A DNA stretch of 64,000 nt, taken from positions 72,445 to 136,444 of the IMG/VR virus record IMGVR_UViG_3300032007_000018. One strand, given 5' to 3'. The stretch comes from a virus. Below the pieces are notes generated by a model that ran no database searches, had not been told where the DNA came from, and saw only the letters and a list, made by a program, of their open reading frames with translations. The position numbers and the translations under genes were made by a program. Below are positions 1 to 31,241 of this stretch, one piece after another (positions within the stretch are counted from its first letter, which is position 1; every line of letters starts with the position of its first letter).

Positions 1-1272
1 AGTATCTACGGTAGAGAACCCAATTTGCACCCATAAATTTATCTGGTTTCTTCGCACCTATACTTTCCCTATACCATCGAATTTCGTATTCCGAACTTGA
101 ATCTTCTCCAAGATTATTTATAAAATCTCTATAAGAAACGGATTGAATGCGGTCATTACCAAAATCATGAATCCAGCGTAATCCAATTTCTTTTTTGTAT
201 AAATCATTATCTGTGAAATATAATTCACCAGTATTTTCATCTTCTCCTGTGGCAACAGGAAAATCATATGTTAAAGTACTTAAAGTAATTAACATACCTT
301 TCTCTTTCTAAAATGAACCTAAATCATATCCAAGACATAGATATGGGTCTCTTAGAAATATATTTGGCAAAATTTGAAAAGCATTTTCCTCTGCATCTAC
401 AACTTCACTTAAGTCTTCTCCATCGCCACCATAGTATTTCTAATCATCGTTATTAGAAGGAATATAAGGTGGAGATTCAATTAATCTTTCTGCTCTATCT
501 TTAAAGTTTCCTTTCTGGTAAAAAAATAGAGCCATAGAAGTTATATACTAATCTTTTAATGAAGATATATCAAAAACGGCTTCTTGAACATAATAGGATT
601 CAAAACTATATTTATCTCCGTAAAAGTCATCACTATCTAAAAAGAAAGTTTTTGTTGATACATCTTCCTCAGATTCTACATCTTCCTCAGATTTTGCATC
701 TGGACGAAAACAAACACGGAGCAATATTCCATAGTTGCCTTCGCAACAACCTAAATTGCTTAACCAAGTAGAAAACTCTCCACGCAATCCTATTCTGTCA
801 TATCCTGTTAGCGCAGCGGAATTACTGTCTTCTGCTGACCAGGTCCAAAATGCGTGTTTATCACGATCAACATTACCTTTATAACCGTGATTAGCCCACA
901 ACCATAGATCTTTATATTCTCCCTCTATTAAATTATTAGTTACATTAACTAAAGTTTCAAAAGGAGACTAAAAAATAGCAGCGGTATTCTTTTTAGTGGC
1001 CTATCGACCAATAATAATTTTAGGCTGACTATAATCATTATTTGGAATAGTAACTAGAACGCCATCATCATTCTTATAGCCTGTTTCTAAAGAATAAGCA
1101 GTAAAAGATACTGAACCATCTGAAACAGTATATTCACCTTCATTGGCTTTTTCATCGTTGACTATTGTGCAAGCAATCGTTGTATCAAAGTTAATTGATT
1201 TAATTCTCTCCTAAAAAAGGATATCCATCGCTTGTAACAAATTTTCAGCAATGTCTTTATTAGCGCCCATCT
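1..1272 (-). CDS. Tail protein encoded just after the tape measure gene. The gene runs off the window start, so its 3' part is missing. TAG-recoded.
   Basis: Minus frame is open from the ATG near 1272 to the window edge if TAG is sense. A Shine-Dalgarno AAGGAGGG sits upstream. Track fragment 548..901 lies inside in the same frame. Position is directly 3' of the tape measure gene. Confidence 0.5.
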
Positions 1273-1350
1273 ACTTTCCCTCCTTTTTCTCATATTTCTA
1301 TAATAACATAATTTTTTTGCGAAGTCAAATAATCTCATTAGGCCAAATAA

Positions 1351-1388
1351 AAAATAAAAAGGGTAGACCTATAAGTCTACCCTTTTTA
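1351..1388. terminator. Rho-independent bidirectional terminator
   Basis: Hairpin GGGTAGACC-tataa-GTCTACCC flanked by an A-run and a T-run. It lies immediately 3' of the TGA stop (1389-1391) of the tape measure gene. Confidence 0.7.
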
Positions 1389-4300
1389 TCAAACCCTAGG
1401 GGTTTTATATGTAATATTTGACGGTCTTGCTGCATATTGAGTTGCGCGATTAATAAGATTATTAAAAGCTTCTTCAATTTCAGTATGATCTGTTGCATTT
1501 GGAAATTCTGCATGAATTGTAACTTCTTGCTCTAACGTCTAATCCAGCCCTCCAAACGAAGGAGAATTGAGTCCCGTTGAAACACTGCTTGCGGCTGCGC
1601 GCAAATCAATGGCAGAGCTAATCTAACGAACCAGCTCAATAGTAGCAAGTATATTAGCAGTGTCTTCTGCGCCAAGGACAAGCTCTTTTTCGTGTAAGAT
1701 AGCTAATTTACCATCTGAACCCCACTCACCAGTATATCCTCCAGAAGCCATGCCGACTATTTCATTATATAATTCTCTTGTAAAATACTTACCAGATAAA
1801 TTAATACCTTTTTGCTATGCAGTCTAAAATATCTATGCTAATTCATCATTAGAAAGATAGCCCGTCGTTCCTTTACTATTACGAGTTCTAGCTAAAGCAT
1901 TATATCTCCCTGAGAACCCATTTGCTGCATACTCATTTGCCATTTCTTGAGAAAAATCTGAAACATTACTAAAGTCATACTAAGTTGCAGCGTCTCTTTC
2001 AGCCATATCCATAGCAGCCGCCAATCGCATATACGCCTGAATCATAGCCATAATCTAATCATATTGTAATGCCCATTCCTTAGTAACATCTGCTACAGAA
2101 GTAAGTAAATTACCAATGGTTGGAATTGTATTCGTAATTAATTCAGTCTTTAATTGTTGATTAGCAAGTTTTAATTCATCAGTTTTCTTCTTTAAATCCT
2201 GCAAGCCAAGAGAAGTGTTATCTGTAACCACTTGTCTATCAGCATCAAGCTAATCCATGGTATCTTTAATTTCTGTGAATGTATCAATGGTATCCTGTCT
2301 ATAATCAGAACCAGCATCAATAACATCTTTATATGCTGTAGTCCAAGCCTCTCTATGATCTGTAGTGGCAACTTCATCTAACCAGCCAAGAGCAGTATAA
2401 TAACTATGTCTCTAAGCCTCAAGCAAATCATCGTAATAAGCCGCCGTCTATAAATACTTTTCATCAAATTCAGCCTAAGTAGTAATTCTGCCCTCTTGGT
2501 AATCAAGAGCTAATTGTTGTAAAGCTTCATACTTCTCACGCTCAATTTGAGTAATCTTTTCTCCATAGTCGTTAGCTTGACCTAAAACTAAATTATAAAG
2601 ATCATTTTGCTTATCAGCAAAGTTCTATTCTGCGTCATTGATTTTATCCTAATCCGCAGTATAAACATAACCATAATTACCTTCGCTATCTCTCTGCAAG
2701 CGCACAATAGACTTAGCATTTTGTGCTTCTTCAAGAGCAATTTGCGCAAGTAATAATTCATAACGTGCTTTAGCAATATCTAAATCACTCTAATTTAATT
2801 TTTCCTACTTTTGCATTTGTTCAATCTCAGTAGAGAAATTCTTTAATTTAGTCTTTGCTGCAACACTATCTGTCTTATCTATGTCTTGAGAGAGCTTTCT
2901 TAATAAAGTGTTAGTTTCGTATATCTAATTAGTTTTTGTTAAATACTCTTCTTGAACGGCTTTAGCTCTTTCCATAGAATCTGCTAAGAAGTCCCATCCT
3001 AATCCCTTTGTTAAAGCATCTTCTCTAGCCGCCATGATTTTATCTAAAGTGTTTTTATATAATTCAACAACAGACTCTAAATAAGCTTCTGCGTCTTCAT
3101 ACATCTTATTCTCTGCTTCACGGGCTTGCGCGATGGCGGGGTCAAGAACGGCTTCTTTGAATTCGCGAGCAGCCTCCTCAGAGACAGCTGGATTATTAAG
3201 TAATTCTTGATAAGTTTTTCTTGCATTATCGGCCTACTCCTGGAACATTTTGTACTCGGCAGTAGATTCTTCTAATGCATTTCTCTCCATTTCAACAGTA
3301 GCTTTAAGAACCGTTTCCATAGATTTATAATCAAATTCCTTACCAGTCAAACTTAATAAATTCTTTAAATGCTCCATAATCTCAACGTGATGAGCCATCT
3401 AATCTGTAAGCTTACGTAATTCTTCAACAGCGCCATCTATAGTATCAGAGTAGAATTGACGCATCTTTTCATTCATATCAAGCAAGCTATCTATAACTTC
3501 ATAAATTCCATCACGTGCGGTTTGAACTGCCTATATAAACTAATCTTGACTAATCTCTTCTGCCTCATAAAGAGCTTGAGCGTTCTTGTAAGCTTCCTCG
3601 TATTCTTTTCCTCTATTGAGGAATGTTGAATACTGGCTATCTATCTTATTATCAGCAGAGAAAAGATTTTTCATTACTTCGACTGTTTTATAAACACTAT
3701 CGCCTAAAATTTTGGCAGCCATCTCTAAACGTTTTAATTGAGATTCATTTAAATCGACTTTAAGATCTAATTCAGTTTGCCACTTCTCAAAATTTAAATC
3801 CTACAACTATCTAAGTTTTTCAGCAAGATCATCATTAGTATCTTGCCAAAGCTCTGAAGTTTCTTTATATTGTTCAATAATATCTTTAATAGCTTCATAT
3901 TGAGCATTATATAATTCCGTTTTACCAGCATTATCCCAAGCTTCCTATCCAGCTGCGTCTAATTTATTATACTCTTCAATTTGTTTATTTTTATAATCTT
4001 CAAGTGCTTGCATTAACTCCTCATAATTTAACAACAAGCCAGTTTCTGTGTCAATTAAAGGCTATATGGTAGTAGCTTCAACAACGCTCATTATGTCAGC
4101 ATAATGTCCAGTTATATTACCTGCTGCGTCTTTTGTAGTATAATAAGCACCAATACCTCTAGATTCATCTGCTGCTATACCAGACATTAAATTATTATAA
4201 TCAATATCTTTATATTTTTTAATTTCATTAATATAATCTTTTGTTTTGCCAATAATTTTATTTAAAGCAGCAGTTTCTTTGTCGATAGCATTAAGTCTAT

Positions 4301-7300
4301 TTGCGCCAAATAAACGATCTTTCTCAGAAGACGCTCTACTATATTCTCTAGATAACTAACCCAATGAAGACTAAACATTTGCATAACGATTTTCTGTATG
4401 CTATTTCTAAGTGGCTTTGGATTTGCTACCTCCACCACCGCCACCTTTAGATCCGCCGCCTCCGCCAGAACGACCAGATGTGCTACTTACTTTACCACCA
4501 CCAGATTTATGTGCATTTGATAATTTAATACCAGTGGCGGTTGTTTGTTTAGTTACTTCATCTGTTACTGTGACAGGAGTAATGGTTTTATGATATTCTG
4601 GGAAGTGAGTAACCTATTTATTTAATTCACCAGTTTCTGTCTCAGTAGAGAAAAACATACCTGGCTTATCAACCACAGTTACTTTTTCATCAAAAGCAGT
4701 ATCCTAATTAACATCGGTAGATTCTGCTGTTACCGTTTTAGTTTCTGCATCAATAGAAGCATTAGCAATAATTGCATCACCTGCGGCCGCAGCTGCATTG
4801 GCAGCATCTTCCATTGAACCCATAAATGGAGTAACATCACAGTCAATATGCATTCCAGAAAGACGTGCTTGAATTTCATCTGCAGTTAATCCAGCCTATA
4901 CCCATGCTTCAAGCATAGCCTATAAAGCTGGACTATTATCAATATCAATAATAGCTCCATCAGCTAAATTTGCTAATTCGCTCTTTAACTGTTCTGAAAT
5001 TTCTGATAAGCCATATTCTTCAGCCTAGGCATCAATAAAAGCATCTCTAAGTTTATCTAAAGCTTCTTGAGCTTTAGTTCCACCTTCAGCTAAATCATTA
5101 AGAATATCCGAATCAATATTAGACATAAAATCAATACTAATTAATTCTTCATTTGTGTCTAATATATCTGCTAAAGTTTTTCTTAATGCTTTATAATTCT
5201 TTTCGCTTGCAACAGTTGCTTTCGCTTCTGCTGTTTCGGCTTTATTTAATCTTTTTATAACTGTTTCATAATCGGTGTAATTATCAGCTAAATCATTAAT
5301 ACCATTATTTAAACGTTTATAACGAGTGGCTGCATCAGCAGCTGCTTCTGCTATATCAGCAGTAATTCGTGCAGTATCTTTTTCTTCTGCGTTTAAATTT
5401 CCTAATAAATCTGTATTTTGACTAAAGATATCTGCTAATACTTCTAATTCATCCGCTTCTAAGCTAAAAGCATCAGCATCTTCAGCGACAGAAGTAGCAA
5501 CTGCTAAATTATGTTCAGCTACTTTAATAGCCTCTTCATCATTACTTCTTAAAGCAGCTTGATAGGCTTCTATTTCTTGTTTAGTATTATCATACTAAGC
5601 AGCAAGAGTGGTTAATGCTTCACCATAAGCCTATTGAGCTTCTCGTGAATTATTAGTTAAACCAGTTAATTCAGAATGACGCTATCCTAATTCTTGCATA
5701 TTTTTAGCAAGAGAAAGATACTAAAAACTTAATCCTTCTAATTTAGTCTACTCTTGTTCTAAACTACTAGTTAATGTATCAATCTCCTGAGTATCAGTTG
5801 CTGTAGCCAACTATGTTTGTGTATTCTAAATATTAGTATCGCTATAAGCAATTTCTCGGCTAAGTTCAGTTTTTCTTTCATTGGTTGCATCATTACGTAG
5901 CTCTTCAGCAGAACCAACCATTGCATAAGAATCATCAGCTTTTTGTCTGAAATATCCTTGCTAGCTAGGACTCAATTCTGCATAATCTTTTGCAGATATT
6001 TCTCCACCAGTGCTTACCTTGTTAATAATTTTTTGAACTTTACCAAATTTTTCAGCAAGTTCATCTACATTGACATTTCTAATTGCTTGTCCAGCAATTT
6101 CTATCTTCTTGGCAAATTGATCAAGATCTACACCAAAATCCATACCAAGACTCTATAAATATTCTTTAAACTATTCAATACTATCAAAATCAGAAAAATT
6201 AACTTTAGAAAAAGCTTCCGCAACTTCTGCCTATAATTCTTCTGGAATCTAATTAATAATTTCAGAAAAATCTGCCTTAATTTCACTATTATTCTTAAAT
6301 AATTCTTTAAGATTAATTAGCTAATCTACAGGTAAACTATGAAAAATATTCTAAATATCTTGAGGCAATGAAGCAAATTCATCTAGTAAAGCGGTTCTTG
6401 CACCTGTAATTGCCGCTATAAATTCATTTCCTGTCATACCTACTAAAGTAGCTATAGCAGATAATTCTGTTTTAGAAATATTTAATACCTCTAAAATAGA
6501 ATCTGTATCTGTCATTTTAGATAACTGATCAGCAGATAGAGAACCTAAAACGTCTGAAAAATTAGCCTATCCGCCATTTCTCATAGCAGATTCAGATAAT
6601 CCATTCGCTAGGTTACGAGCGCTTGTACCAGCACCTACGCCCTCTAATTGTCTAGTGATAAAATCAAAACCTTCTTGAACAGCTTCTCCGGCTGCCTAGC
6701 CTGCTATGGCAAGTTTTATAGTTTCAGCATCGATTGTGTCAATAATATTTCCAGCGGCATCTGTAAATGTATATACAAATTTATTGCCTTCTTTTTTAAT
6801 CGCGACATTCGTCTGATCGACTAAATCTTCACTAAAACCTCTTACACTAGATAAATATTGTTTCTTTAAATCTACAACTTCTGCATTTTTAGAATCTGTA
6901 CTATGACCATAACCTTCTCTAAAGCCATTATAAACTTTACTAAAAGCTTCTTGGCCATATTGGCCACCATAAAATAGCTAGGCTGAATCAGCGGTAATGC
7001 CGTTATTAGCAGCATATTTAATAGCTAAATTATTAGCAGTATCCTAAATTGCCTAATCAATTCTTGTCTATCCCTATTCAACCACATCATTCATATGAAC
7101 ATAGCCCTATGTGGTTGCATTAATCTAAGACACTAAATCTTCTATACTTGCTTTTATTGTTGGATCATCCAAAAATAGATCATTAGAAGCTCGCTCTTCA
7201 TCTGACCGGATTTGTTTAATTAAATCTTCTGTAGTAATCTATTTACCAGCCTATAAGAAATCTTGAATTTCTTCCCAGCTTAATAATTGTGTTCCAGCAA

Positions 7301-10300
7301 CACCACTTAAACCGCCGTAGTAGTCAGATGCAAGTTTACTATAAGCAGTATTATTACTTGCGTATGTAGATACCGTAGTTTCCTTAGAATGATATTTGTT
7401 TGCTCCTGCTGCACGGCCAGCCTCACCAAATTGTGCATATGATAATGCTTGTGCTTTAGTGGTCTCCTAACCAAGAAGTCCTTCAAGTACAGAAAGATTT
7501 AACGTACCATCTGGATTTAAAGCTCCTTCCATAGCTAATAACTATGGATATTTTTGTAAAATTTCATCTGTTTTATCAAGAGCATCCTGTAAAGCATCTT
7601 TCCATTCAGTAGTGCCCTTTGTACACTCTTCAAGTTTATGGACAATATCGCCATAACTATCGAATTCATACTTTAAATCTTTTGCTGCCTATTGAGTTTC
7701 ATCGAGTTCTTCCTTTAACCCTTCCGTCTCTTCGGCGATACTCTTCATTGTCTTATCATAATTAGAAACAGAAATTTTTTTGAGCCAACCAACTAATTTA
7801 ATAATACCAATAATTAAAGCTCCAACAGCAATAACAATTAAACCTATAACTCCTAGAGAGGCAAGCATAGAAGTATTTAATGCATCCGTCGCTCCCTTTA
7901 ATAACCAAGTAGCTGCAGCATGGGCTTTCTTTGCCACTATACCTGTCATATCAGCAGTTGTATTGGCAATTTTAGACAACGTATTAAAGGCAAACGCTCT
8001 AGTTTGTTGATTAGTCAGCGTAGTAATTACTGGAATAATCATTGATAAAGCTGACATAATTTGAATCGCTTTTTCTCCCGCTGATAAAGAATCATTACTA
8101 ATGATTGAATCAATATTGCGAATTGCATTAACAGCAGTATTTACACTCATCAACGCAGAAGCTAAAGCCGTAATCCCCGTTGATACTAAATCTATCTATG
8201 TTGTTAAACCAGCAATAGAATTTTTAGCGCCATCTACAGCGTTCTTATGACGATTTAATCCTTCAGCAGCATCCGTTGCTGCTGAAGCTTCACGCTAAAA
8301 CTATGTTGCTAAACGCTAAGCCATAGCTTCGGCATTCTCAACGCCCATATTTCTTAAAATATTAGTTAAATTTTCTATAGAAGGAGATAATCCTCCATCT
8401 ATATCTATTTTTAAAGTATCTAAAATAGCTATAGCATCATCAAACTAATTATTTATTAATGCGTTATTTAATTCAACTAATTCTTGCTAAAATTCATCTG
8501 TTCCAACACTAGCAGCCTAAAAAGCTTGCACCATTTTCTATAAAGCTTCTTTATTATTCTATATGCCTTTAATGTCCATTGGCATATTAATAATCTTTTC
8601 AGCATAAATACTATATGCTTTTTCAGTTTCGGTATATGCCTATCTTAACTACTTCTATTCTTGTATTAAATAATAGCTTTGACTTTTATTTTTCCCCTAA
8701 ATAGATCCATTTTGCTATCTAATCAGCTGATCTGTTCTTCTTTTTTCTTCATCCGCCGCTTTTCCTAAAGCAATAACTTCCTAACCTAAAGCATTATTAA
8801 TATCCAGAATCATCTATAATTGTTTTTGGCCCTATTCGCCTAAAGTTTTTGCTTTTTCAATTGCCATATCCTGCAGTTCTGCCTGTCCAGAATAAGCAGC
8901 TTTCATCGCATCTCCTTCATTACTCCCAGAAGCTTTAGATGCAATCTCCAGAAGTCCCGCATTAGCATCTTGTCTCAGCTACTAAATTTCAGCTCTTCCT
9001 TTTGCTGTTAAAGAATGTAAATCATTAATAGCATTACGGATAGAATTAGCAATCTAATTGCCGAATACCTAGGTAACAATGCTACCAATCAGAGTTAAAA
9101 GTGGACCGACACCACCAATACCCTCAATAAAATTATCAACAACACTTAAAACTTTTTCAAAGCCATTTAATAATTTTATGAAGAATTTGTCATCTAATAA
9201 ATCATTATAAATGTCTTGTGTTGCAGCTTTTACTCTCTTGCCAGCAGCTTCCCACGATTCTGCATAAATATCAGCCTGCTACTACAAGGTTCCTTCTGAG
9301 CCTTCTGCTAAGGCTTGATTTGCTTGAATCTTTCCGTAGTTATTCATAATAGCCATGAATTGAGCATACTATCTTGTACCAGCAACAGTTTCAGCTAACG
9401 CAACTCGTTGAGCTTCGTTAATTTGATTCCATTTTTCGGCTGTTTCATCAAGTATATCATCCATGACTTTCAATTCACCATTGGCATCAAGAATATTAAC
9501 ACCAATAGTAGCCAAAGCTTTTGAATATTTATTCAAATCTACGCCATCTTCAAGAGTCTCTCCAAGAGATAGGCCCTGGAAACGCGCGAACATGGTCTTA
9601 AAAGCAGTACCAACAACATCTGCACTTTGTCTGGTCTCGGCAACAACGGTAGCGAGCGCTGCAGTAGCTTTTTCATAACTTAAACCAACAGTATCCGCAA
9701 CTGATGCGAACTTTTGCAAACCTTGAGCAATCTCGTCTGAGCTAGAAGCTGTAGCAGCGCCTAACTTGGCAATAACATCAGCATAATATTCTAATGATTT
9801 AGAACCGTCATTAAAATTATTCCAAATGGCGGTCATTTGACTAGACACGTCTTCAGCACTTTGACGAGATACATTTGCAAGTTTCATAGTTACATTTGTT
9901 CTATCTGTAACATCTTTTCCAGTTAAACCTTGCTGATAATAGATCAAAGCGGCATCTGTATATGCAGTAGTTGTCGTACTTAATGCTCTTGCAGCTTTAT
10001 TGGCCTAATCAGCGAATTTAGCCATCTAATCCACTGATTGTCCCGTTACAATTCTAATATTATTTAAAGATTCATTTAAATCTTGAGCATATCCATAAGC
10101 ACCCTATAAAGCACCCATAAAGCCATGTAAAATGCTTGAAGAAATTTGCCATCTTGCAGTATTTCTTAATGTAGTAGCAAAATTAGCCAATAACGTATTG
10201 GAACGTTTCAGAGGGACTTCGGCCTTCATTATAGAAGTAGCTAAATTAGAAAAAGCCTAAGTTCCACTAGGACCTAATGCCATAAGCGCATTTTTATAAT

Positions 10301-10568
10301 CATTAATAGTTGTTTTGCTAGCTCTTAATTCATTATTAAATTTAGTTAAATTTAAATTTCCTGTTGAACTAGTAGCGGATTCTAACTAAACTTTTAGCTA
10401 TGCTGCTAGTGTAGTTGCTTTCTAAATATCTTTAGATAAAGGCATTTGAGAATTTTTCTGCGCAGAAGTCATAAGCTCTGTTAGCTATCTTTGTAAAGCC
10501 TATAATTCCGCTTTAGCCTTACTTGTATCAGCAGTCATAGCTAAATTAATATTTAATTGTTTAGCCAT
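1389..10568 (-). CDS. Tail tape measure protein, about 3059 aa, with many in-frame TAG codons
   Basis: Track fragments 9369..9947 (TMP N-domain-like: MTAIWNNF, TAFKTMFARFQG), 7689..8153 (hydrophobic segments), 5961..6143 and 3540..3722 are all in one frame, with codon high coordinate = 2 mod 3. Each fragment ends at CTA on plus, which is TAG on minus. The frame stays open from the ATG at 10568 (SD GGAG) to TGA at 1389 when TAG is read through. A Gly-rich segment lies near 4440-4500. Confidence 0.8.
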
Positions 10569-10684: not shown

Positions 10685-11218
10685 TTAACCAAGTTTGGTT
10701 AGAACATCTTTTAACAGTGTGAGCTGATTGGGATCTGCCATTTTATCTTTTAACGAGTCTGCGTCAAATTCAAGATTACTATAATCCGTTTTCATAGCAT
10801 CAAGAATACCATAGATACTATTACGATATTCATAAATATTTTGCGCGGTCTTACTCAACCACATAACGATACTCTAATATTCTCTCTAAGGCAATACTGC
10901 AAAGAAATCATCAAAGAATCCGCTTCCCGCAAGTAAGTCATAAAGTTTGGCAGGATCTTCTTTTTGCTTTTCTGTAAAACTAATATTACTATATCTAAAA
11001 ACCATTTCCAAATTCATGAAAAGGGCAATTTTTGCTTCATTAATGAAGTTATTATCATCTTGGCATTGATTTAATACTGCCGCAATTAATTCCATCTTCT
11101 CCTGGATTGGTAGATACTACTTAACTTCTACAATCTATCCATTCCAGTCAAAAGATGCTACTTCTGTATTTTTGGTTAAACCAAGTTTTGTAAAGGCTAC
11201 TTTACTCATTATTATTTT
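10685..11218 (-). CDS. Tail assembly chaperone-like protein, TAG-recoded
   Basis: ATG at 11218 with SD AGGAGG. Track ORF 10886..11095 is in the same frame. TAA stop at 10685. Lies immediately upstream of the tape measure gene, and its start overlaps the end of the upstream homing endonuclease gene. Confidence 0.5.
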
Positions 11219-11801
11219 CCTCCTTTATCTCATAAAAACTCCATCTTAAGCGCTCTTTTGTAATAGGGTGTTTTCCAGCGGTTTTTCTTTCTCCATTGCA
11301 ACAACGACTAATTGGAGTGCTATTTTTTAGTCCAGCCCATTCGGCCGCAAGCATCTAACTATCAAAAATTTGATTATTATTTAGACAGATTACTTTTTTC
11401 TTAACTTTCTAATGCATTTTTTCTAGATGCAATCGTAATTTATCTATATTGTTTTTAGCATATTCTTTATTACTTAAACTAATTTTCTATTTAGTTTCTT
11501 TGGATAATTTATATCCAGAATTTCCACCTGTTTTTAAATTATATCCTTTATTACGATTTATTGTATCAAAGTATGAGATATAATATTTTTCTTTTTCATC
11601 AGCTTCTTCAATAGAAAGGTTATCTTCTAATATAATATGCTCAAAATTTTCCCAACCATATTTCTGTATAGCATTATAGAAATAAGAGCAATCTTTGTAA
11701 GAAATAGGGTGCCATCTAATTTTTAAATTACAACTCTATCCAATATAAATTTTCCCATTGACCTTATTTTTATGCATATATATACAATAATCTTTTGCCA
11801 T
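11211..11801 (-). CDS. GIY-YIG homing endonuclease (TAG-recoded) inserted between the tail genes
   Basis: Translation reads MAKDYCIYMHKNKVNGKIYIG[TAG]SCN...YGWENF...GYNLKTGG. A GIY...YIG motif is followed by TAG at the conserved Gln position. Paralogous to 23873..24583 and 60324..61150. SD AAGGAG. Confidence 0.75.
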
Positions 11802-11862
11802 TTATAAACACTCCTTTTTCTCTTTATATCTAAATATATTATAGCAAAAATTTTGATTTATG

Positions 11863-12915: not shown

Positions 12916-12942
12916 ATTGAATTACCTCTCCTTTTTCGCATA

Positions 12943-12977: not shown

Positions 12978-12988
12978 TTAAAGTTTCA

Positions 12989-19171: not shown

Positions 19172-19189
19172 TACTCTTCTCTCCTTTCA

Positions 19190-20226: not shown

Positions 20227-21795
20227 TTAATTTAATGTTTTTGCGGTGTTTAATGCAGCTTTCACCCAAGCTGGGGTAGAGCTATCATCACCTTCATTTC
20301 CGTTAAGATTGTAAGTTACTCCATTCTTGGTTTTATCTTCTTCTGTGGTGAAACTTACCTTATTACGGAAACAAATGACAGAAAGCTTTGCTTCAATATC
20401 ATCAAGAGAATACTGATCAATGTTCTCAAGAACATCTTTCTTATCCTCGTCAGATAACATATAAAATTCAGCAATCTTAGCTTCTTTTTCAGTGCGTTCA
20501 GCAGTATGCTTAAACTCACGTAAAGAAGTAAGCTCGCTATTTAAAGACTCAATAGTGTTATTGAGTTCAGCAACTTGGGTTTCAAGATTACTGTAATTAG
20601 TCTGAAGTTCGACATACTCAGGAATTTCTTCTAAAGTATCATAAGAGAATTTTTTATTCTTTTTCTTATCATCATCTGACTTATCTTCTTCGCCGTCATC
20701 AGACTTTTTACCATCTTCTGATGAATCTTCAGAATCCTTTTTACTCTCTTCACCAGAATTGCCCTTATTTTCTTCTTCTTCATCCTTTTTCTTGGCATAT
20801 TCAGCAATATATGCCTCAACGTCGGCAGCGGCAAACTGGGCCTCAGCAGCAGGAGTGTAGGTCTTGGTAACCTCAACCAGATCGCCCTCTGCCTTAAAAC
20901 CATCTGCTTCAGTAAGGGAGAAGTTTAAACGATAGTATTTCATCTCTGCGCGATTGCAAAGAACTGCGAACTTTTGACCATTCTCTTCAAATACGCCATC
21001 TACAGAATACTTAGAACACCAACGGTTTTCACTGTCAGGGTAAGTAGACTCAATGTAGCTATAAAGCGCAGACCAAAGAGCATCGCCGATTTCAACTGCA
21101 TAAGTATTAAACACTTTCGTTCCTCCTTCTGTTAATAATTCTTTTATCTCATTCATCATAGCGAACATCTTATTCTGGAAAGACTCGTCAATAACTAATG
21201 AGAAAGCAGTAATTTGTGACCCCTCAAAGCAGGGTTCACTTTGTTCCCCTAAAATACAAAGTTTAGAGATAAATGCCTCATTGATAATGAAAAATTGTGG
21301 CTTATCATTCTTATTTTTTGACCAAGTTGCATCTAAAGTTTCTTCGTCAAGTTCCATAGAATGATTATTGCCCTTCTCTGTTATTCTCTTAGCTTCTGGA
21401 TATACATGATCCCATATATATCCTTCGGTGCAGAGATAAAGATGCTCAACTTCTCCATCATCTAAATAAGTGGCGAACCAAATCTTAGCGTCTGTTGGAA
21501 CAAAACCATAAGGAGTTGTCGTATCAGTAATACGCCATTCTCCATTAGAAATATTTATCTAACGATTATGTTCCTCAAAATCGCCATCCTTCTCATTAAA
21601 AAATCCAACAATTGGGCATCCGCGCAAGCTAGGAGCCATTTCACGGGCCACTTCTTTTGTAATGATAGAATGATTACGATTTGGTTCATCGCCAACATAG
21701 CAAACTTTTATCTATACTTTAGAAATAAAAGGACTAATCTTTGTACTTTCGATAAATTCGATAGGAGTTTCTAACAATACACTTGTATGTTTCAT
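20227..21795 (-). CDS. Prohead protease / scaffold protein. An in-frame nested scaffold start is possible at 21357.
   Basis: ATG at 21795 with SD GGAGG. The frame continues through two TAGs into track ORF 20227..21357, which has an acidic Lys/Asp/Glu/Ser-rich stretch and a coiled-coil C-terminus. The arrangement resembles lambda C/Nu3. Confidence 0.5.
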
Positions 21796-21811
21796 TTCAG
21801 ACCTCCTCAAC

Positions 21812-23477
21812 TCATAGACTCTTTGTTCTAAATAGTTTTCTCACTTTTCTAATCATTATCTTTTTCTGGACGACCAGCCTATTTAGTTTCAGCTTTTTTT
21901 ACAGTCGTTTTCTGTTCTTCTGTTTTCTTTTGATTTTTTGAATCACCAGTTTGATTATTTTTACCCAACAAATCGGCCAAATTCATTGTAGAACTTAACA
22001 AATTAGGTAACATCAATTCAGTAAGATGAAGAACTTCGTTTTCAAAGTGAGCAGTATTTAAAATAAAGCTCTGTGAATGTCCAAGAGCAATTTGAGGAAG
22101 AATCTTAGAATGGCCCATTTGTGATTGCTCTTTATATAGTTTAGAAAGATTTTGATAATTATACTACGTAGTTTCAAGCATATAAAATCTAAATGCGTAT
22201 TTCTTTTTCGCAGTATTTCTTTCTTGTACTATTCTATCAAAAAATATTACGAATTGCAACAAAAGATTTCTTACGGTTGACTCATCTTCTAAAATTGATT
22301 TCTCTAAAGCCAAATTACCATCTGTATTAAAGATATTTTTTGAAGTACCGGCTGCCATAAAGACGCCTCGCTCAACCTTTGCTAAGTCATCTCTTGTCAC
22401 TGTAGTATTTTTATCAGACATATCAATACTTTCAACGTCCGCAAATGTAGTTAATACATCAACGCCAATAGCACGCTGCAACATAGCTACCGCATTATTA
22501 TGAATATCTCTAGCTTCATCAACATCAAAAATTAAATCCCCATTTTTATCTAAGGGAAGTTTTTGAATAATAATTTTTAATAGCTATTGCATCTGTTTAC
22601 GTCTATCTAAATCCTAAGCCGCATCTAAATCTAATATATAAGGAATAACATTAATAAATGTAGGCATATCGCTACCATTCATATTAAATTTAAACGCTGC
22701 TCCTGGATCTAATAGATACCAGCCATATCCAATACCTTGATGATCTGGTCCAAGTTTCCCTTGTTTATATAAAGCATACCCCTTCTTAAATTCATCAGGA
22801 AAAAGATTAATAATTCTCATACGATAATTAACATCTCCAAATGTATCAAAGAAAGCCATATTAAATTCAATGGCTGGCATGCCCATTACAGAATATTGAG
22901 TTCGGCAATACTCAATTGGAAGCTCTTGTATAATTATTGCGTCATTTGAAGGAACAATGTATCCATAATAGCATCCATCAACGAGAACTTTAAGTGCCAT
23001 CTCGCCGCAGATTTTTTTAATATAACTATTATCTAAAAAATTAAGCATTTTAGAAAAATCCTTCAATATTTTCTCTTCTTTTACAGTATCATCAAAAATC
23101 TCTGGGACAATATACCAATCGTAACGATACATAAAAGATACATACTAACAAAGTCTTTGATAGATACCACTTGTCTTATAAAAGAATCTTGAAAATTCGC
23201 GCAAAATTTTATAATCATTAGTCATAATGGCTTGATATAATATTCTTTTATCTCCAAATGGAAGAGTTTTTGGCATAATGCGTTTTAAATTTCCTAAATC
23301 AAGAACTGCATCATCTAAATTTTTCATACCAACTTTAATTTTCTTAAATTCATTATCAAGGGTACGAAATTCAATATCTCTACCGCCATGAATCATATCA
23401 AAACCTTTTGAATAAATGGTTTCTTTACGACTTGGCGCAAGCAACCCATCTTGCGCAAGTTGTTTTTCAATTTCCAA
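21812..23477 (-). CDS. Portal protein, TAG-recoded
   Basis: Track ORFs 23145..23477, 22614..23132, 22164..22484 and 21879..22118 are all in one frame, with codon high coordinate = 2 mod 3. They are separated only by TAG. About 555 aa, between the terminase and the protease. SD GAGAGGAGG. Confidence 0.65.
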
Positions 23478-23499: not shown

Positions 23500-23856
23500 T
23501 TAATAGCCAGCTTTGTGCATTATATAGTCATAAGAAATTAAATTTTCTTCGGTATAAGGAATTTCAATTAACTTAAAATCATGTAAAGCACAAAATCTTC
23601 GCTTTCGGTTATCATTGTATTGTTGTTGATAGAGGCCACGTTTTCCACCAAACTTCTAGCTAGCCTCATAATGCTACCTACCTTGATATTCTATAATAAA
23701 GTCAATTTGTCCATCATCATCAAATACAACAAAATCAAAACGAAGAGGTCTGCCACTGTCAGCCTTCAAATCTGGAAAGCTATACTCCTCTTTAAAAGTA
23801 AGCCCAGACTCAGCCAGAATTTCTTCAATCTTAATTTCTCCTCTTGAAGCTCGCAT
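23500..23856 (-). CDS. Vsr/DUF559-like (PD-(D/E)xK) endonuclease, TAG-recoded
   Basis: Motif FDFVVFDDDGQIDFIIEYQGR[TAG]HYEAS[TAG]KFGG. This aligns to IRLIEFDGEQHYKPVQRFGG of 30490..31241, and both TAGs align to Gln. SD AAAAGGAGAGG. Confidence 0.6.
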
Positions 23857-23872
23857 AATACCTCTCCTTTTC

Positions 23873-24583
23873 TCATATAAATATCCATCTATATTTTGGT
23901 CCTTTATTTCCTCCGACAGCAATCTAACCATTTGATTTACAACTTTTACTAATAGTAATATTTGATATATTATATTTTCGTGCCGCATCATTTATAGAAT
24001 CAAAAATTTCGCCAGTGTCTAAATTTTTCACTTTTTTTGCTCCAGGCTTTTGTTTTATCTAAGATTGCTCTTTATTTAATAAATCCTATTTTTCAAAACA
24101 CCAATGCAAAGGCTCTTTTGTAATAGGATGTTTTCCAGCAGATAATCTATCTCCTTTTATCTAACTAGCAATATTACTACCACCTGTTGCCGTTAAACCA
24201 GCCCACAATGCAGCCGCAGTTAAAGATTCAAAACACTATCCAGTTTCTTTACAATATACTTTTTTCCTGGCAGTGTAATTTATTGAATGATGAGGAACTT
24301 TTCCTCCAGTTTTTATATTATAGCCTTTTTTAGGGTTTGTTGAATCAAAAACAGCAATCCAATATTTTTCTCTTTCATCTGCTTGCGCACTTGTTAAGCC
24401 CTCTTCAAGAATGAAATGCTCAAAATTCTCCCATCCATACTCTTGAATTGCTTTATAAAAGTGAGAGCACCCCTGATATCCTGATCCTCCTCTAGCACGT
24501 CTTTCTATTGTATCTTTTGTCTATCCAATATAAACTTTTTTAGTAATTTTATTTTTATGTAAATAAATAATATAATTATTCAT
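23873..24583 (-). CDS. GIY-YIG homing endonuclease, TAG-recoded
   Basis: MNNYIIYLHKNKITKKVYIG[TAG]TKD...YGWENFEH...GYNIKTGG. Paralog of 11211..11801; the two share a nucleotide block near 11240 and 24110. SD AAGGAG. Confidence 0.75.
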
Positions 24584-24650: not shown

Positions 24651-26405
24651 TTAGTTAAGGAACATCCAATCTTTAGCATTAAATTTCTTTTTTCTCTTCT
24701 TATTATCTTCTTCGACTTTAATATAATACAAGCCATATTCAAACGCAGAAAATTTATCCTTCTTAATTGACTTATTTGCCTATTTAAGAATAATATTTGT
24801 TCCCTCATTTTCTTCTCGGAGATTCATCATCTCTTCTTTTAATATGGAAGTTAAGGTGAATGGTTTTAAATAAATTGACCTCTCTTCAGGTTTCATTGCC
24901 TAACCAACTTTAGTTCCTAATAATTTTATCTTAGCATCTCTTTCTTCAATAAGCATTTTTACTTTACCGGAAGAAAGATTTACTTGAGCATTAGCATGCG
25001 CTTCTGTGTTAATTGGCGCATTCGCTTTGATAATATAAATTGCATTTTCTTCGCAATCAGGAGTTCTATACTTCTTATACTCTTCAGCCGCATCTTCTTG
25101 AGTACCACCATAAACGCCAAAATCAGCAATGGTATCTCCGGTTTCTGGATCAATAGATGGTTTAACCATATAATCAATCAAACCAATACCAAGACCATTA
25201 CCATCGATTACGATACGACGCGCATTATATTTATAATACAACTTCTTAAGCGCAAGAGCCTAATCACCAAAGTGTTCATCAGTTAACGTATAAATATTAA
25301 CAAGAGACTTCAATGAAGGTCCTTGCGGCTGCGGGCTAACTTTAAATACGCAAACAACAGTATCGCATCCCTTACGACCTACATCAACTGCGAGAATATA
25401 ATATTGATTTTTACTTGAACGACCAGATGCTTCATATTCTGGTTGCTTCAAAATTCTTCCACGATTAAACATTTCAGAATTGAAATAAGCATCTTCTACA
25501 TCACCAGTCCAACGAGATTCATATTCACGTTCAAATGAAGCCTCGTTAAATGTTCCTTCATCCTTCTGGTCTTGAATAAATGTTTTACTTTGAAGTCCTA
25601 CTTCAACAGGTAGTCGCCAAGTTCCGCCAAGAACGATGCATCGCTCTGGCTGAGTAACCATACGAACTAAGAAACCAATAAGTCGCTCATAAGGATAAGT
25701 ACCTTTATATCCTGCCGTAGTAACAAATACCTGACTTTTATTCAAAGTTTCCGTTGGCTAAGTTGAACCATCCATACATCTGCGGGAAATAGCCATCGTA
25801 GGAATAATGACTTCGCGCAAGATTTGGTCATCAACGCCAACACACTCTTCGACAAGTCCGCCATGCTTACGCTTACCTCTTGAAGACTCTCTTGCCGCAA
25901 TATTATCAAGAGTGGAACCACTCTTAAATACGTATTTACAATAATCCTTTCCTTCAAGAGTCTTACCACGACGTCGATCAATTTCTCGATCGAACGCAGG
26001 AATCAAGGTACAAATTTCATTTACTTTATCTTTCAGAATGCCTGCAGCCTGTTCTTTACCACCAGACGTTACAAACAAGTTAGCTCGTGGATAAAGAATA
26101 CATCTAATCATTAATGCCATAACTGACAAGAAAGATTTGGAGTAAGCACGAGGGAATACCGCATAAACATACTGATGGCGCATTACACAACGTAAAAATA
26201 CTCGCTGATAAAAATAGAAGTGGAACTCGCCTTCTTTTACCTCTGTGCGAGTTCCTCTTACCATAAAATCTACAAATAAATCAGGATATTCACGCCAAAA
26301 AGCTATGTAATCGCGCAAGTATGGTTTGATAGCATTTATTCTTTCTTCTGAAAGACCAATTTTCTATCGCTTATTATTTAAGTCTAATAAATCTTGAAGA
26401 CCCAT
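24651..26405 (-). CDS. terL: Terminase large subunit, TAG-recoded, about 585 aa
   Basis: Track ORFs 25758..26318 (ATPase region), 25260..25745 and 24900..25241 (RNaseH-like nuclease region) are all in one frame and split only at TAG. ATG at 26405 with SD GAGGAG. TAA at 24651. Confidence 0.85.
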
Positions 26406-28875: not shown

Positions 28876-29448
28876 ATGATTATCGCCATTATTATTCTTG
28901 GAATTCTTTTGGTAATATCCATTTTGTTTAATCTAGCCTCTTTTAGAACTTTATTCGCAGTAATGCGTGATATCCGAGATCTTGAAAATCTCCGAGAAGA
29001 ATACGATTTTATCAATGGCGATGTTGAAATTGATGAAAATCGTATTGCAAATAAATTTCCAAACACAATTCTACTTTGTCATGTTGAAAAAAATCATGAT
29101 CCTAAAGACACAAGCACAACAAAAGTTGTAGATATATCAAGTTATCCGAAAAATCATGTAATTGGAATAACCTATTTTGTCCAACATCAGTTTTTCTCTG
29201 ATCTCAAAGATAGCGTAAAAATGGACGAATTACGCAATCACCTTCGCGCAGAATTTATTGAGGACCATCCAGAGGAAGATGATTTAGAATTCATTGACAA
29301 GATGATCGATGAAGCAATTCATGAAACATTAGGCGGAGAATATAATATTGATGAAGCGGGAGGCGCAATGACACGTCCACTAATCCCCAACTGCACTGTA
29401 TATCAATTAAAGGACGGTAGATGGCTATGGCGGCAAGAATCATTTTAA
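28876..29448 (+). CDS. Membrane-anchored hypothetical protein
   Basis: Track ORF, intact. N-terminal transmembrane helix. Confidence 0.6.
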   Translation: MIIAIIILGILLVISILFNLASFRTLFAVMRDIRDLENLREEYDFINGDVEIDENRIANKFPNTILLCHVEKNHDPKDTSTTKVVDISSYPKNHVIGITYFVQHQFFSDLKDSVKMDELRNHLRAEFIEDHPEEDDLEFIDKMIDEAIHETLGGEYNIDEAGGAMTRPLIPNCTVYQLKDGRWLWRQESF

Positions 29449-29663
29449 TTATCGCATGGATAATTATGGTGCTCCTTACGCTGACGCAGTATGCTGACCT
29501 CGTGGCGGATTAGGACGTCCCTCGCGCAAGAAAAATTTTAGCAGGTTTGGTATTCATCTTAGGAGCCCCGATATTCTGTGCTTATACAGCACTGTCGGGG
29601 CTTCTTGACTATTTTTTGCCAGAAGGATGGGACGATGATGATGATAGCGAATACAAACATTAA
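29426..29663 (+). CDS. Small two-transmembrane protein with an Asp-rich tail (holin-like), one in-frame TAG
   Basis: MAMAARIILIIAWIIMVLL...ADLVAD[TAG]DVPRARKILAGLVFILGAPIFCAY...DDDDDSEYKH. Ends at TAA. Confidence 0.4.
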
Positions 29664-29674
29664 GGAGAACCATT

Positions 29675-30022
29675 ATGCTTATTAAAAAATCAGATTTACT
29701 TTTTGAAAATCCGTACCGCAAGATTTTTAAGTATCACTTGGAAGAAGGCGGACAGACAACTATCGCCGCATACTGGGGTGAACTTTTAGATATTCAGGTC
29801 CAAGAGGACGATATCGTACTTTGGGCTGCTATAGCTCCATACTATACAGATATCATGGGAGAAGCGCATAAACGTGAAGACAAACCCACGATACTAACTT
29901 TTACGGCTGTAGGAACGGGCTGGGAATATAAAGATCGCAATATCGGCCAGTACTTCAAGACTGTCCAAATGCCTTCTGGATTGGTTTGGCACATTTTCGT
30001 AAAGAAGGGCTCAGAAACATGA
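29675..30022 (+). CDS. Hypothetical protein
   Basis: Track ORF, SD AAGGAGAA. Confidence 0.6.
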   Translation: MLIKKSDLLFENPYRKIFKYHLEEGGQTTIAAYWGELLDIQVQEDDIVLWAAIAPYYTDIMGEAHKREDKPTILTFTAVGTGWEYKDRNIGQYFKTVQMPSGLVWHIFVKKGSET

Positions 30023-30489
30023 GTATAGATGGGCGCATCCTGGACACGGATAATCGCTTTTACGATTACTGTAATACCTTCGGTATTACGAATCCGTTCC
30101 AAGAGGAATAGAAACGATTTGCCGCACGCTGTAAAAAAGAAGAAAAATATACAATAATAGAAAAAGAAAGTCCAGAAGACATAGCATGGCGGAAAGAGTG
30201 GTCCAAAAAAAGAGATGAATACCTGCGGCTGAGCCATACTTTCCGCCTCTGGGACTTCCACTTCTGGATGCCGTGGGAGAGGTTTAAGTGGCATTGTGGC
30301 TTTGATAAAGAATATACGGATGTGAGTATATATATGCCGTGCGACTGCGCCGAACGGCAATGCAGTATGGAGTGCGCATATTTTTTGCACGAGTGTCCTC
30401 GTGCAAAGGGAGAGTTGAAAACTCCTGAAATTTTAGGATTTGACGGACGGTGGGAGTATCATGACAAAGACTATGGAGGTATTTATTAA
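30019..30489 (+). CDS. Cys-rich hypothetical protein with one in-frame TAG
   Basis: The ATGA overlap with the upstream gene marks the start. The frame is open to TAA at 30487 if the TAG at 30109 is sense. Confidence 0.45.
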
Positions 30490-31241
30490 TGGCAGCTAAA
30501 GATTATACTGGGCAACTTTGTGGATGTTGGAAAGTAATTGAAAGAGATTTTCATCCTACTTCAAAATCGCACGAAACTTTTTGGATTGCAGAATGTTAGA
30601 ATTGTGGAAATATAGCAAGCGTACGAAAAACCGATTTAGATAAAAAGCCAGTAAGTTGTAATGAATGCAAGGGCGATTTTTCAAGTATTGCAGAAAGAAA
30701 AAAGTATGACATAAAACCCGGTGATGTTTTTGGATATTTAACAGCTCTTGATAAGCCTCATTCGGCACAAAAACTTGGTTTAACTGATAAACTAAAAACG
30801 AATGAGCCCTATGTAAGATGTAAATGTAAATGTGGAAAAGAATTATATGTGCGTAAAAGTCATCTATTAGGACTTTATAGGCATAGCAGAACAATTTCTT
30901 GCGGATGTGCCTCTATGAGCAGTGGGGAACTAAAAATTCAAACAATTTTAGAAGATGCAAAAATTCCATATGTTTATAATTATGTTATTCCTGAGTTTTC
31001 AAAATCTTCTCCGTTTGATTTTGCTATTTTAGATGAATATGATAATATAATACGTTTGATAGAGTTTGACGGAGAGCAACATTATAAACCCGTTCAACGG
31101 TTTGGTGGAGAAGAGGATTTTATTAAGCAGCAACAATATGACGCAAATAAAAATAAATATTGCGAAGAGCATCATATTGATTTGAAGCGAATTCCGTATT
31201 GGGATTTTGACAAATTGACGGTAGATTATTTGTTGTCGTAA
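30490..31241 (+). CDS. Zn-finger plus Vsr/DUF559-like endonuclease fusion, one in-frame TAG
   Basis: N-terminus CGCW...C[TAG]NCG...CNEC...CKCKCG. Its C-terminus equals track ORF 30849..31241 (FDFAILD...IEFDGEQHY...FGG). Paralog of 23500..23856. Confidence 0.6.

What the first reader, a model, noticed from the sequence alone, without database searches (positions are those of the whole stretch)
1..31241. Stop-codon reassignment: TAG is read as a sense codon (probably Gln) in late genes on both strands, while the early module avoids TAG entirely
Every large structural gene (tape measure, terminase large subunit, portal, protease/scaffold, neck and tail genes) is cut into six-frame-track pieces only at TAG, and the pieces stay in one frame. 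The track ORFs at 7689, 9369, 24900, 25260, 21879, 22164 and 28014 all end at TAG. These genes terminate at TAA or TGA instead, for example TGA at 1389 for the tape measure gene and TAA at 24651 for terL.

The amino-acid identity is supported by three internal alignments. In the two DUF559 paralogs, FIIEYQGR[TAG]HYEAS[TAG]KFGG aligns to LIEFDGEQHYKPVQRFGG, and both TAGs fall on Gln. All three GIY-YIG genes carry TAG in YIG[TAG]S/T, where YIGQT/S is a common consensus.

None of the roughly 45 early genes between 31680 and 49220 contains an in-frame TAG or ends in TAG.

This matches the code-15-like late-gene recoding reported for some gut phages, here in what looks like a siphovirus-like genome with a very long tail. 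Recoded genes also occur on the plus strand at 29426-31241, 51407-51922 (minus), 60324-62134 and 63291+.
Basis: partly seen in the sequence, partly recalled or inferred. Interest (0 to 1): 0.9.

Follow-up and report, generated by a model that had tools for sequence, protein, structure and literature searches.

The report
Phage late genes read TAG as glutamine
This is part of a large gut or rumen tailed phage whose late (virion) genes use the stop codon TAG as a glutamine codon while its early genes avoid TAG entirely; this is real, but it is a trick already described for this phage group.

Summary
A 3,059-codon minus-strand frame (1389-10568, tape measure) holds 94 in-frame TAG and no TAA or TGA before its terminal TGA. 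Reading TAG as sense raises ORF coverage of 1-31.3 kb from 61% to 96%. None of 79 independently called genes ends in TAG.

Glutamine is the best-supported meaning. In a codon alignment of 51 related TerL genes, several columns hold only TAG, CAA and CAG. Against three standard-code phages, Gln is the most likely residue.

The 38 called early plus-strand genes (31680-48575) have no TAG, either in frame or as a stop.

The window belongs to the phAss-1-like / SPbeta-like siphovirus group, which NCBI lists as a 'code 15 clade' and which was published in 2023. It is therefore a new member of a known kind.

The suppressor tRNA was not found in the 73 kb of this genome that I could read (16 tRNAs, none CUA). 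The closest relative (TerL 91%) carries two tRNA(CUA) genes with Gln-like acceptor ends.

Two modest extras emerged. TAG-bearing genes are AT-rich (median GC3 0.25) and TAG-free genes are GC-rich (0.59). The major capsid gene is nearly TAG-free across the whole clade.

The parts
1389..10568 (-). Tape measure protein gene, 3,059 codons, 94 in-frame TAG, terminates at TGA
   Evidence: PF10145 PhageMin_Tail on the ENA call
2..1309 (-). Tail protein gene downstream of the tape measure gene; runs off the window start; 8 in-frame TAG
10685..17985 (-). Neck and tail genes, each with 1-11 TAG except the tail tube gene 12989-13984 (YomU_Tube), which has none. Includes a GIY-YIG homing endonuclease at 11202-11801 with YIG[TAG]S
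18065..20206 (-). Major capsid gene (YonB family, 18065-19171) and the adjacent 338-aa gene (19190-20206). Both have zero TAG and higher GC (0.41-0.45)
   Evidence: TAG-poor across the clade
20227..23396 (-).
23500..24583 (-). Two homing-endonuclease-type genes. The DUF559/DUF2726-like gene (2 TAG) has both TAG facing Gln of its paralog at 30489-31241. The GIY-YIG gene (6 TAG) carries YIG[TAG]T
24651..26405 (-). Terminase large subunit gene, 584 codons, 5 TAG, ends TAA
26405..28616 (-). YonG_N-family gene (7 TAG) and a 311-codon gene (7 TAG), both upstream of TerL
28876..31241 (+). Five plus-strand genes. Three have one TAG each: 29421-29663, 30019-30489 and 30489-31241
31680..48575 (+). Early module: 38 called small genes, GC3 mostly 0.5-0.85, no in-frame TAG and no TAG terminator
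40483..40558 (+). tRNA-Lys(CUU), the only tRNA in the window
50863..51922 (-). AT-rich minus-strand block. The HTH-like gene 51293-51922 has 6 TAG and the gene 50863-51117 has 1 TAG
52313..60246 (+). TAG-free plus-strand genes behind sigma-70-type promoter motifs
60324..63998 (+). GIY-YIG gene (7 TAG, YIG[TAG]S), a 272-codon gene (5 TAG), a TAG-free peptidase-like gene, and a partial gene with 1 TAG

Best explanation
The window is 64 kb of a roughly 155-175 kb SPbeta-like siphovirus from the phAss-1-like group. In this phage UAG is a glutamine codon in most late genes.

Inferred mechanism. Early genes are written in a form any standard-code host ribosome can read: they have no TAG and are GC3-rich. 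They sit on the plus strand, where host-type promoter motifs (TTGATT-N17-TATAAT) occur between 41.8 and 62.2 kb. The phage also carries a large tRNA array. By analogy with its closest relatives, that array should include one or two Gln-type tRNA(CUA). Once these accumulate, UAG is decoded as Gln and the AT-rich late genes can be made full length. These include terminase, portal, neck and tail genes, the tape measure gene and several homing endonucleases. Before that point the late genes would be truncated. TAG is never used as a terminator anywhere in the window, so read-through does no harm. The genes needed in the highest copy number (capsid, its neighbour, tail tube) avoid TAG, presumably because suppression competes with release factor 1.

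Shown: the in-frame TAGs, their Gln equivalence, the early/late partition, the absence of TAG stops, and the tRNA(CUA) genes in relatives.

Inferred: the timing, the competition with RF1, and the presence of the suppressor tRNA in this genome.
For: - Open frame: 94 TAG and no TAA/TGA in 3,059 codons, chance about 1e-112.
- Coverage of 1-31.3 kb is 61% under table 11 and 96% with TAG as sense.
- 0 of 79 genes end in TAG, against 14 of 91 in standard-code relatives.
- Gln is the best-fitting residue against three standard-code phages.
- TerL columns in 51 relatives are purely TAG/CAA/CAG at window TerL positions 382 and 502, and all but 3 Arg codons at 542.
- Both TAGs of the DUF559-like gene face Gln in its paralog.
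- Early genes: 0 TAG against 68 CAA+CAG (Fisher p = 6e-15).
- The nearest named relative, phAss-1, is a published TAG-to-Gln phage with three tRNA-Sup(CUA) and a 3,149-aa tape measure protein.
- tRNA(CUA) genes occur in 8 contigs of the TerL 65-72% set.
- Two tRNA(CUA) genes occur in the closest relative, Ga0310697_10000051, with TerL 91% identical. Their acceptor ends and G73 match that phage's own tRNA-Gln(CUG) and tRNA-Gln(UUG).
- This genome's tRNA array starts 2.7 kb past the window end.
- Three independent assemblies agree at 99.995-100% identity.
Against: - No tRNA(CUA) was found in the window or in the next 9.3 kb of the same genome. Sixteen tRNAs were seen and no CTA anticodon hairpin.
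- About 100 kb of the genome could not be read.
- Some recoded relatives in the literature lack a detectable suppressor tRNA.
- No protein-level data exist.
- 'Early' and 'late' are assigned from gene content, strand, composition and promoter motifs, not from expression data.
- Only 16.7% of distant-homolog residues facing TAG are Gln. That is somewhat below the 24.9% seen for true Gln codons in the same alignments.
Confidence: 0.88

Rival explanations
1. TAG is a sense codon but stands for an amino acid other than glutamine, for example Lys, Glu, Asn or pyrrolysine (ARAGORN labels CUA tRNAs 'Pyl').
For: - At distant-homolog positions facing TAG, A, E, K and R are also common.
- At the GIY-YIG YIG+1 position, homologs have K about as often as Q.
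- Whole-sequence similarity of the relatives' suppressor tRNAs does not single out tRNA-Gln: identity to many tRNAs is 0.64-0.71.
Against: - Likelihood over empirical substitution rows favours Q by 25.5 log units over N and by more over E, K and R.
- Several TerL columns hold only TAG, CAA and CAG.
- CAG to TAG is a single transition.
- The acceptor end and G73 of the relatives' tRNA(CUA) match their own tRNA-Gln genes.
- tRNAscan-SE assigned Gln identity to the suppressor in phAss-1.
- No pyl genes were seen.
Confidence: 0.05
2. TAG is read as Gln, but this particular genome has no suppressor tRNA of its own. It would depend on a host amber suppressor, a co-infecting relative, or some other way of weakening RF1.
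For: - None of the 16 tRNAs in 73 kb has a CUA anticodon.
- In this genome, a 1.3 kb ORF-free structured stretch sits where relatives have tRNA-Ala and tRNA-Asp.
- Orthologs of the genes flanking the suppressor in relatives could not be traced to this genome's contigs.
- The literature reports recoded relatives without a detectable tRNA-Sup.
Against: - Only about 40% of the genome was read.
- In relatives the suppressor lies about 14 kb beyond the last gene shared with the stretch read, which is outside what I could fetch.
- Every close relative examined there has two tRNA(CUA): L240 and L244-L247.
- The failed tracing is limited by how the look-up tools list cluster members.
Confidence: 0.1
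3. The TAGs are genuine stops. On this reading the late genes are fragmented pseudogenes of a defunct phage, or the TAGs are assembly errors.
For: Table-11 callers (JGI) do produce fragmented genes here.
Against: - Only TAG interrupts the frames, never TAA or TGA, across 187 sites.
- Homology runs through the TAGs in single alignments.
- The same pattern appears in dozens of related contigs from different samples.
- Three independent assemblies are identical or nearly so.
- No gene terminates with TAG.
Confidence: 0.01
4. The absence of TAG in the early module is a by-product of its different base composition or origin (GC-rich DNA has few TAG), not of selection for translation before a code switch.
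For: - Early genes have GC3 of about 0.6, against about 0.25 in late genes.
- Out-of-frame TAG is also rarer there: 22 in 10.8 kb against 341 in 26.6 kb.
Against: - Out-of-frame TAG is still present (22), whereas in-frame TAG is exactly zero among 3,556 codons.
- TAG is also never the terminator in these 38 genes.
- TAG-free genes of intermediate GC, such as capsid and tube, sit inside the AT-rich late operon.
- The same partition is described for other recoded phages.
Confidence: 0.12

Closest known systems
Phage phAss-1 and the proposed 'Phassvirus' group (Babkin et al. 2023, PMC10607447; NCBI 'Caudoviricetes code 15 clade')
   Same: - TAG is read as Gln in TerL, portal, tape measure and tail genes.
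- The tape measure protein is about 3,100 aa.
- The genome is a large siphovirus type with dozens of tRNAs.
- TerL is homologous (42% identity), and its gene is split into three 'hypothetical proteins' in the table-11 GenBank annotation.
- MCP is free of TAG.
- Base composition is uneven, with AT-rich and GC-richer stretches of the genome.
   Different: - TerL is only 42% identical, and there is no nucleotide-level match to any INPHARED record.
- The genome is probably larger: contigs are 155.5 kb, or 103.9 + 71.7 kb.
- In phAss-1 the tRNA-Sup genes sit beside nrdD. In this phage's close relatives they sit after a Thg1-like gene in the tRNA array.
- The suppressor has not yet been seen in this genome.
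Stop-codon-recoded gut phages in general: crAss-like, Lak, Garnet, Topaz and others (Borges et al. 2021/2022; Peters et al. 2022, PMC9523058)
   Same: - The hosts use the standard code.
- Recoded codons are concentrated in structural and late genes.
- The reassigned stop is depleted as a terminator.
- Standard-code close relatives exist within the same clade.
   Different: - The virus lineage is different: an SPbeta-like structural module with YonB, YomU, YomW, YonG and YonD families.
- Lysis genes, which are central to the published model, are not in this window.
SPbeta-like large siphoviruses that use the standard code: Enterococcus phages VRE9_4 and EF1, Geobacillus virus E3, Alicyclobacillus phage KKP_3916
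   Same: - The packaging, head and tail module is syntenic, and TerL is 44-46% identical.
- The tape measure gene is very long.
- Homing endonucleases lie next to TerL.
   Different: - They use TAG as a terminator (14 of 91 genes) and have no in-frame TAG.
- Their base composition is uniform, at 0.25-0.36 GC.

Membership tests
Code-15-type (TAG to Gln) recoded phage | Conserved genes are interrupted only by in-frame TAG, and the frame and homology continue across them | tested here: met
   187 in-frame TAG in 22 genes, with no TAA or TGA interruptions. Single alignments run through the TAGs
Code-15-type (TAG to Gln) recoded phage | TAG positions correspond to Gln in homologs | tested here: met
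   Gln is the maximum-likelihood residue. TAG/CAA/CAG-only columns occur in 51 TerL genes. The paralog pair also agrees
Code-15-type (TAG to Gln) recoded phage | TAG is not used as a terminator | tested here: met
   0 of 79 genes, against 15% in standard-code relatives
Code-15-type (TAG to Gln) recoded phage | The phage encodes a suppressor tRNA with a CUA anticodon | tested here: inconclusive
   Absent from the 73 kb of this genome that was read. Present, in two copies, in the closest relative and in many others
Code-15-type (TAG to Gln) recoded phage | Peptides show Gln at TAG positions | not testable with these tools
   This needs metaproteomics of the source sample
phAss-1-like / SPbeta-like large siphovirus group | Homologous TerL and a syntenic packaging-head-tail module | tested here: met
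   TerL is 42% identical to phAss-1 and 44-46% to Enterococcus, Geobacillus and Alicyclobacillus phages. Gene order matches VRE9_4. YonB, YomU, YomW, YonG and YonD Pfam families are present
phAss-1-like / SPbeta-like large siphovirus group | A tape measure protein of about 3,000 aa and a large tRNA set | tested here: met
   The tape measure protein is 3,059 aa. One tRNA lies in the window and 15 more lie within 9.3 kb beyond it
Recoding as a late or lysis timer (Borges model) | Recoded codons are confined to late genes, and early genes are compatible with the standard code | tested here: met
   Early module: 0 TAG in 3,556 codons. Late genes: 172 TAG
Recoding as a late or lysis timer (Borges model) | Lysis genes are preferentially recoded | not tested
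   No holin or endolysin could be identified in the window. The lysis cassette is expected beyond the window start

The most novel reading that the evidence does not exclude
The phage may run two complete translation regimes, not just a codon switch.

- Early genes are GC3-rich and TAG-free, and would be read with the host tRNA pool.
- Most late genes are AT3-rich and TAG-bearing, and would be read with the phage's own tRNA array, including tRNA-Gln(CUA).
- The highest-copy virion proteins (capsid, its neighbour, tail tube) are held outside the recoded regime across the whole clade.

On this reading suppression would be a deliberately limiting, dose-setting step. Homing endonucleases that carry TAG would be locked into recoded phages.
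Probability: 0.3. Interest if true: 0.55.

Novelty: new member of a known kind. Interest (0 to 1): 0.33.

Why it matters
In practice, any table-11 annotation of this genome and its many relatives shatters the late genes. JGI's calls for the same contig do exactly that. Even PHROG families of 'unknown function' match separate halves of TerL.

Biologically, the window adds a well-resolved case of the early/late code partition in a Firmicutes-type SPbeta-like siphovirus lineage. That lineage appears to be very abundant: thousands of homologs of its accessory genes are in public metagenomes. It also contains standard-code, lightly recoded and heavily recoded members side by side, which makes it a good system for studying how recoding arises. 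The phenomenon itself is not new.

Tried and rejected
- Nucleotide search of 18-27 kb against INPHARED found no match.
- Pfam on the structural proteins gave almost nothing with the local library. PHROGs and the precomputed Pfam hits were informative.
- Exact window-end patterns were not found in IMG/VR.
- The partial tail protein found no relatives in IMG/VR.
- A table-11 fragment of the tail gene was not on record.
- Two guessed starts of the 62.2 kb gene failed before the third worked.
- To find the suppressor tRNA in the same genome I tried:
  - one metagenome scan, which found relatives but not the source contig;
  - three protein searches;
  - three cluster listings;
  - several further look-ups.
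  None led to ENA contigs k141_2168197 or k141_312279 beyond window-equivalent 73.3 kb.
- The long minus-strand ORFs inside the early module, such as 44154-45932 (592 codons with 3 TAG), were considered as recoded genes and rejected. Their translations are low-complexity antisense products of GC3-rich plus-strand genes, and no caller reports them.
- An odd tRNA-like gene with a 24-nt anticodon arm was examined as a possible unconventional suppressor and rejected, because it has no CUA.
Full report
**What is in the sequence**

The window has 39.9% GC. TAG trinucleotides are over-represented on the minus strand. With TAA and TGA as the only stops, a 3,059-codon minus-strand frame opens at 1389-10568. 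It has 94 in-frame TAG. That frame has no TAA and only its terminal TGA. The other two frames of the same stretch carry TAA+TGA at 0.081 per codon, so chance is excluded at about 1e-112.

Greedy ORF coverage of 1-31,300 rises from 61% under table 11 to 96% with TAG as sense. Median ORF length rises from 89 to 140 codons.

**Independent gene calls**

[quoted passage not shown] A gene near the window end lies on ENA contig k141_2168197 (71,749 bp). Both ENA contigs are 100% identical to the window where they overlap. The JGI contig differs at 1 base in 21,107.

The ENA genes were called with recoding: TerL is 584 aa and the tape measure protein 3,059 aa. JGI's table-11 calls are fragments.

Mapped onto the window, the ENA calls give 79 genes. 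Their stops are 56 TAA, 23 TGA and 0 TAG. Twenty-two genes hold 187 in-frame TAG. Standard-code relatives terminate 14 of 91 genes with TAG, so 0 of 79 is not a sampling accident.

**What the phage is**

PHROG and precomputed Pfam hits identify these genes:
- portal;
- TerL;
- a YonB-family major capsid protein;
- a YomU tail tube protein;
- YomW, YonG_N and YonD_N proteins;
- a PhageMin_Tail tape measure protein.

This is an SPbeta-like siphovirus module. It is syntenic with Enterococcus phage VRE9_4.

By TerL, the nearest named genome is phage phAss-1 at 42% identity. Its TerL gene is split into three 'hypothetical proteins' in GenBank. NCBI files phAss-1 under 'Caudoviricetes code 15 clade'. 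The describing paper reports TAG read as Gln, three tRNA-Sup(CUA), a 3,149-aa tape measure protein and a wider group of related gut contigs, only some of them recoded.

IMG/VR holds at least 99 contigs with TerL 65-91% identical to the window's.

**Which amino acid**

The window's late proteins, with TAG masked as X, were aligned to three standard-code phages: VRE9_4, Geobacillus E3 and Alicyclobacillus KKP_3916. Of 174 residues facing TAG, Gln is the commonest at 16.7%, against a background of 5.4%. Using the substitution rows observed in the same alignments, Gln is the maximum-likelihood identity, 25.5 log units ahead of Asn.

Closer relatives give sharper evidence. In a codon alignment of 51 distinct TerL genes, 45 columns contain TAG. 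The other codons in those columns are 38% CAA or CAG. Several columns are purely TAG/CAA/CAG. The window's own TerL TAG positions show:
- position 382: 34 TAG, 9 CAG, 8 CAA;
- position 502: 12 TAG, 32 CAA, 7 CAG;
- position 542: 5 TAG, 34 CAA, 9 CAG, 3 Arg codons.

The two TAGs of the DUF559-like gene (23500-23856) face Gln in its paralog at 30489-31241. All three GIY-YIG genes have YIG[TAG]S/T. The GIY-YIG point is weak, because homologs show Q, K or S at that position.

**Partition of the genome**

The 38 called plus-strand genes at 31680-48575 have no in-frame TAG in 3,556 codons and no TAG terminator. Late genes other than capsid, its neighbour and tube have 172 TAG against 239 CAA+CAG (Fisher p = 6e-15).

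Three abundant virion genes have no TAG either (p = 5e-10 against the other late genes):
- major capsid, 18065-19171;
- its neighbour, 19190-20206;
- tail tube, 12989-13984.

This holds across the clade. In recoded relatives, capsid orthologs average 0.31 TAG, with 42 of 55 having none. Portal averages 7.8 and TerL 6.8.

TAG use tracks base composition. Median GC3 is 0.25 in TAG-bearing genes and 0.59 in TAG-free genes (Spearman -0.74). phAss-1 also has uneven composition along its genome, whereas standard-code relatives are uniform.

A strong sigma-70-type motif (TTGATT-N17-TATAAT) occurs eight times, always on the plus strand, between 41.8 and 62.2 kb. This fits host-polymerase transcription of the TAG-free genes.

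**The suppressor tRNA**

The window has one tRNA, Lys(CUU) at 40483-40558, by both ARAGORN and Rfam. The same genome could be read for 9.3 kb past the window end (locus L213). A tRNA array starts 2.7 kb beyond the end and holds 15 tRNAs in that stretch. None has a CUA anticodon, and no CTA anticodon hairpin exists there or in the window.

Relatives do carry one:
- Eight contigs of the TerL 65-72% set have tRNA(CUA).
- The closest relative, Ga0310697_10000051 (TerL 91%, four TAG in TerL), has two tRNA(CUA). They lie just downstream of a Thg1-like gene, about 6.5 kb past tRNA-Gln(UUG) and tRNA-Gln(CUG).
- Four other related contigs show the same arrangement.

Each of the two suppressors shares its acceptor-stem end and G73 with one of that phage's own tRNA-Gln genes.

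In relatives the suppressor lies about 14 kb beyond the last gene shared with the stretch I read. That is outside what I could fetch for this genome. Repeated attempts to reach it failed. Presence in this genome is therefore inferred, not shown.

No release-factor or aminoacyl-tRNA-synthetase gene is in the window.

**Evolutionary context**

Among 57 loci around related TerL genes, about ten gain nothing from code 15 and so use the standard code. The rest gain 0.09-0.37 in coverage. TerL TAG counts run from 0 to 14. This gradient fits the published model, in which a rare terminator is lost and then reappears as a sense codon in late genes.

**Verdict**

The phenomenon and the clade are already described, so this is a new member of a known kind.

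The modest additions are the clade-wide exemption of the capsid gene from TAG, the tight coupling of TAG use to AT-rich codon usage within one genome, and homing endonuclease genes that themselves carry TAG.

Noticed in passing
whole window; GC by 2-kb bins and per gene: Base composition is bimodal. AT-rich late genes have GC 0.27-0.37 and GC3 0.14-0.33. Early genes at 31.7-48.6 kb mostly have GC 0.42-0.62 and GC3 0.5-0.85. TAG density correlates with GC3 at Spearman -0.74. phAss-1 also has uneven composition, and standard-code relatives do not.
   Followed up: partly
window 18065-19171, 19190-20206, 12989-13984 (minus strand): The major capsid gene, its neighbour and the tail tube gene have no TAG, although they sit inside the recoded late operon. 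Capsid orthologs are TAG-poor across recoded relatives (mean 0.31 TAG, against 7.8 in portal).
   Followed up: yes
window 41813, 49401, 49594, 54344, 57357, 57977, 59747, 62144 (all + strand): A conserved promoter-like motif, TTGATTTTTATAAAAAA..TATAAT (a consensus -35, 17-nt spacer and -10), occurs eight times and only on the plus strand. Three copies share a 40-nt version. No matches are expected by chance.
   Followed up: partly
window 11202-11801, 23873-24583, 60324-61151 (GIY-YIG); 23500-23856, 30489-31241 (DUF559/DUF2726-like): Five homing-endonuclease-type genes are scattered through the window. All contain in-frame TAG, so these selfish genes are adapted to the recoded code. One sits next to TerL, as in Enterococcus phage VRE9_4.
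   Followed up: partly
window 44154-45932 (minus strand) and similar ORFs in 31-50 kb: Very long antisense ORFs appear when TAG is not a stop, up to 592 codons and free of TAA/TGA. They are artefacts of GC3-rich plus-strand genes and could mislead a code-15 gene caller.
   Followed up: yes
L213 18750-20000 (same genome, window-equivalent about 71.0-72.3 kb): An ORF-free, GC-rich, apparently structured 1.3 kb stretch lies inside the tRNA array, where relatives have tRNA-Ala and tRNA-Asp. Only weak Rfam hits were found: HDV-like ribozyme of F. prausnitzii (31.4 bits, E 0.009) at 19396-19452, and YrlA (24.7 bits) at 19319-19382.
   Followed up: partly
L213 15909-15986; also L217 about 7969-8047 and L218 about 6723-6802: A tRNA-like gene has normal acceptor, D and T arms but a 24-nt segment in place of the 17-nt anticodon arm. 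That segment contains the conserved hairpin CCCC-TCGTAATCT-GGGG. It is conserved among close relatives and has no CUA anticodon.
   Followed up: partly
L244 10001-20021, L240, L245 (relatives; outside the window): In relatives the suppressor tRNAs lie near a Thg1-like tRNA-His guanylyltransferase gene, a DUF2828/DUF7788 protein gene and a vault-like (MVP shoulder) protein gene. Public metagenomes hold more than 7,000 close homologs of the Thg1-like and DUF2828 proteins, so the clade is very abundant.
   Followed up: no
window 24651-26405 (TerL): The two halves of TerL match two separate PHROG families of 'unknown function': phrog_15503 at residues 12-234 and phrog_24618 at residues 354-583. 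This suggests the database families were built from split TerL genes. The splits could come from TAG or from an HNH insertion, as in Enterococcus phages EF1 and EF5.
   Followed up: no
window 40483-40558: A lone tRNA-Lys(CUU) sits in the middle of the early module, 26 kb from the main tRNA array. In relatives, tRNA-Lys(CUU) lies about 1 kb downstream of the suppressor pair.
   Followed up: no
window about 52200-52340: The two ENA contigs that together cover the window overlap by about 141 bases here (the assembler's k). Together they would span about 175 kb, whereas the JGI contig is 155.5 kb. Genome size and ends are unresolved.
   Followed up: no
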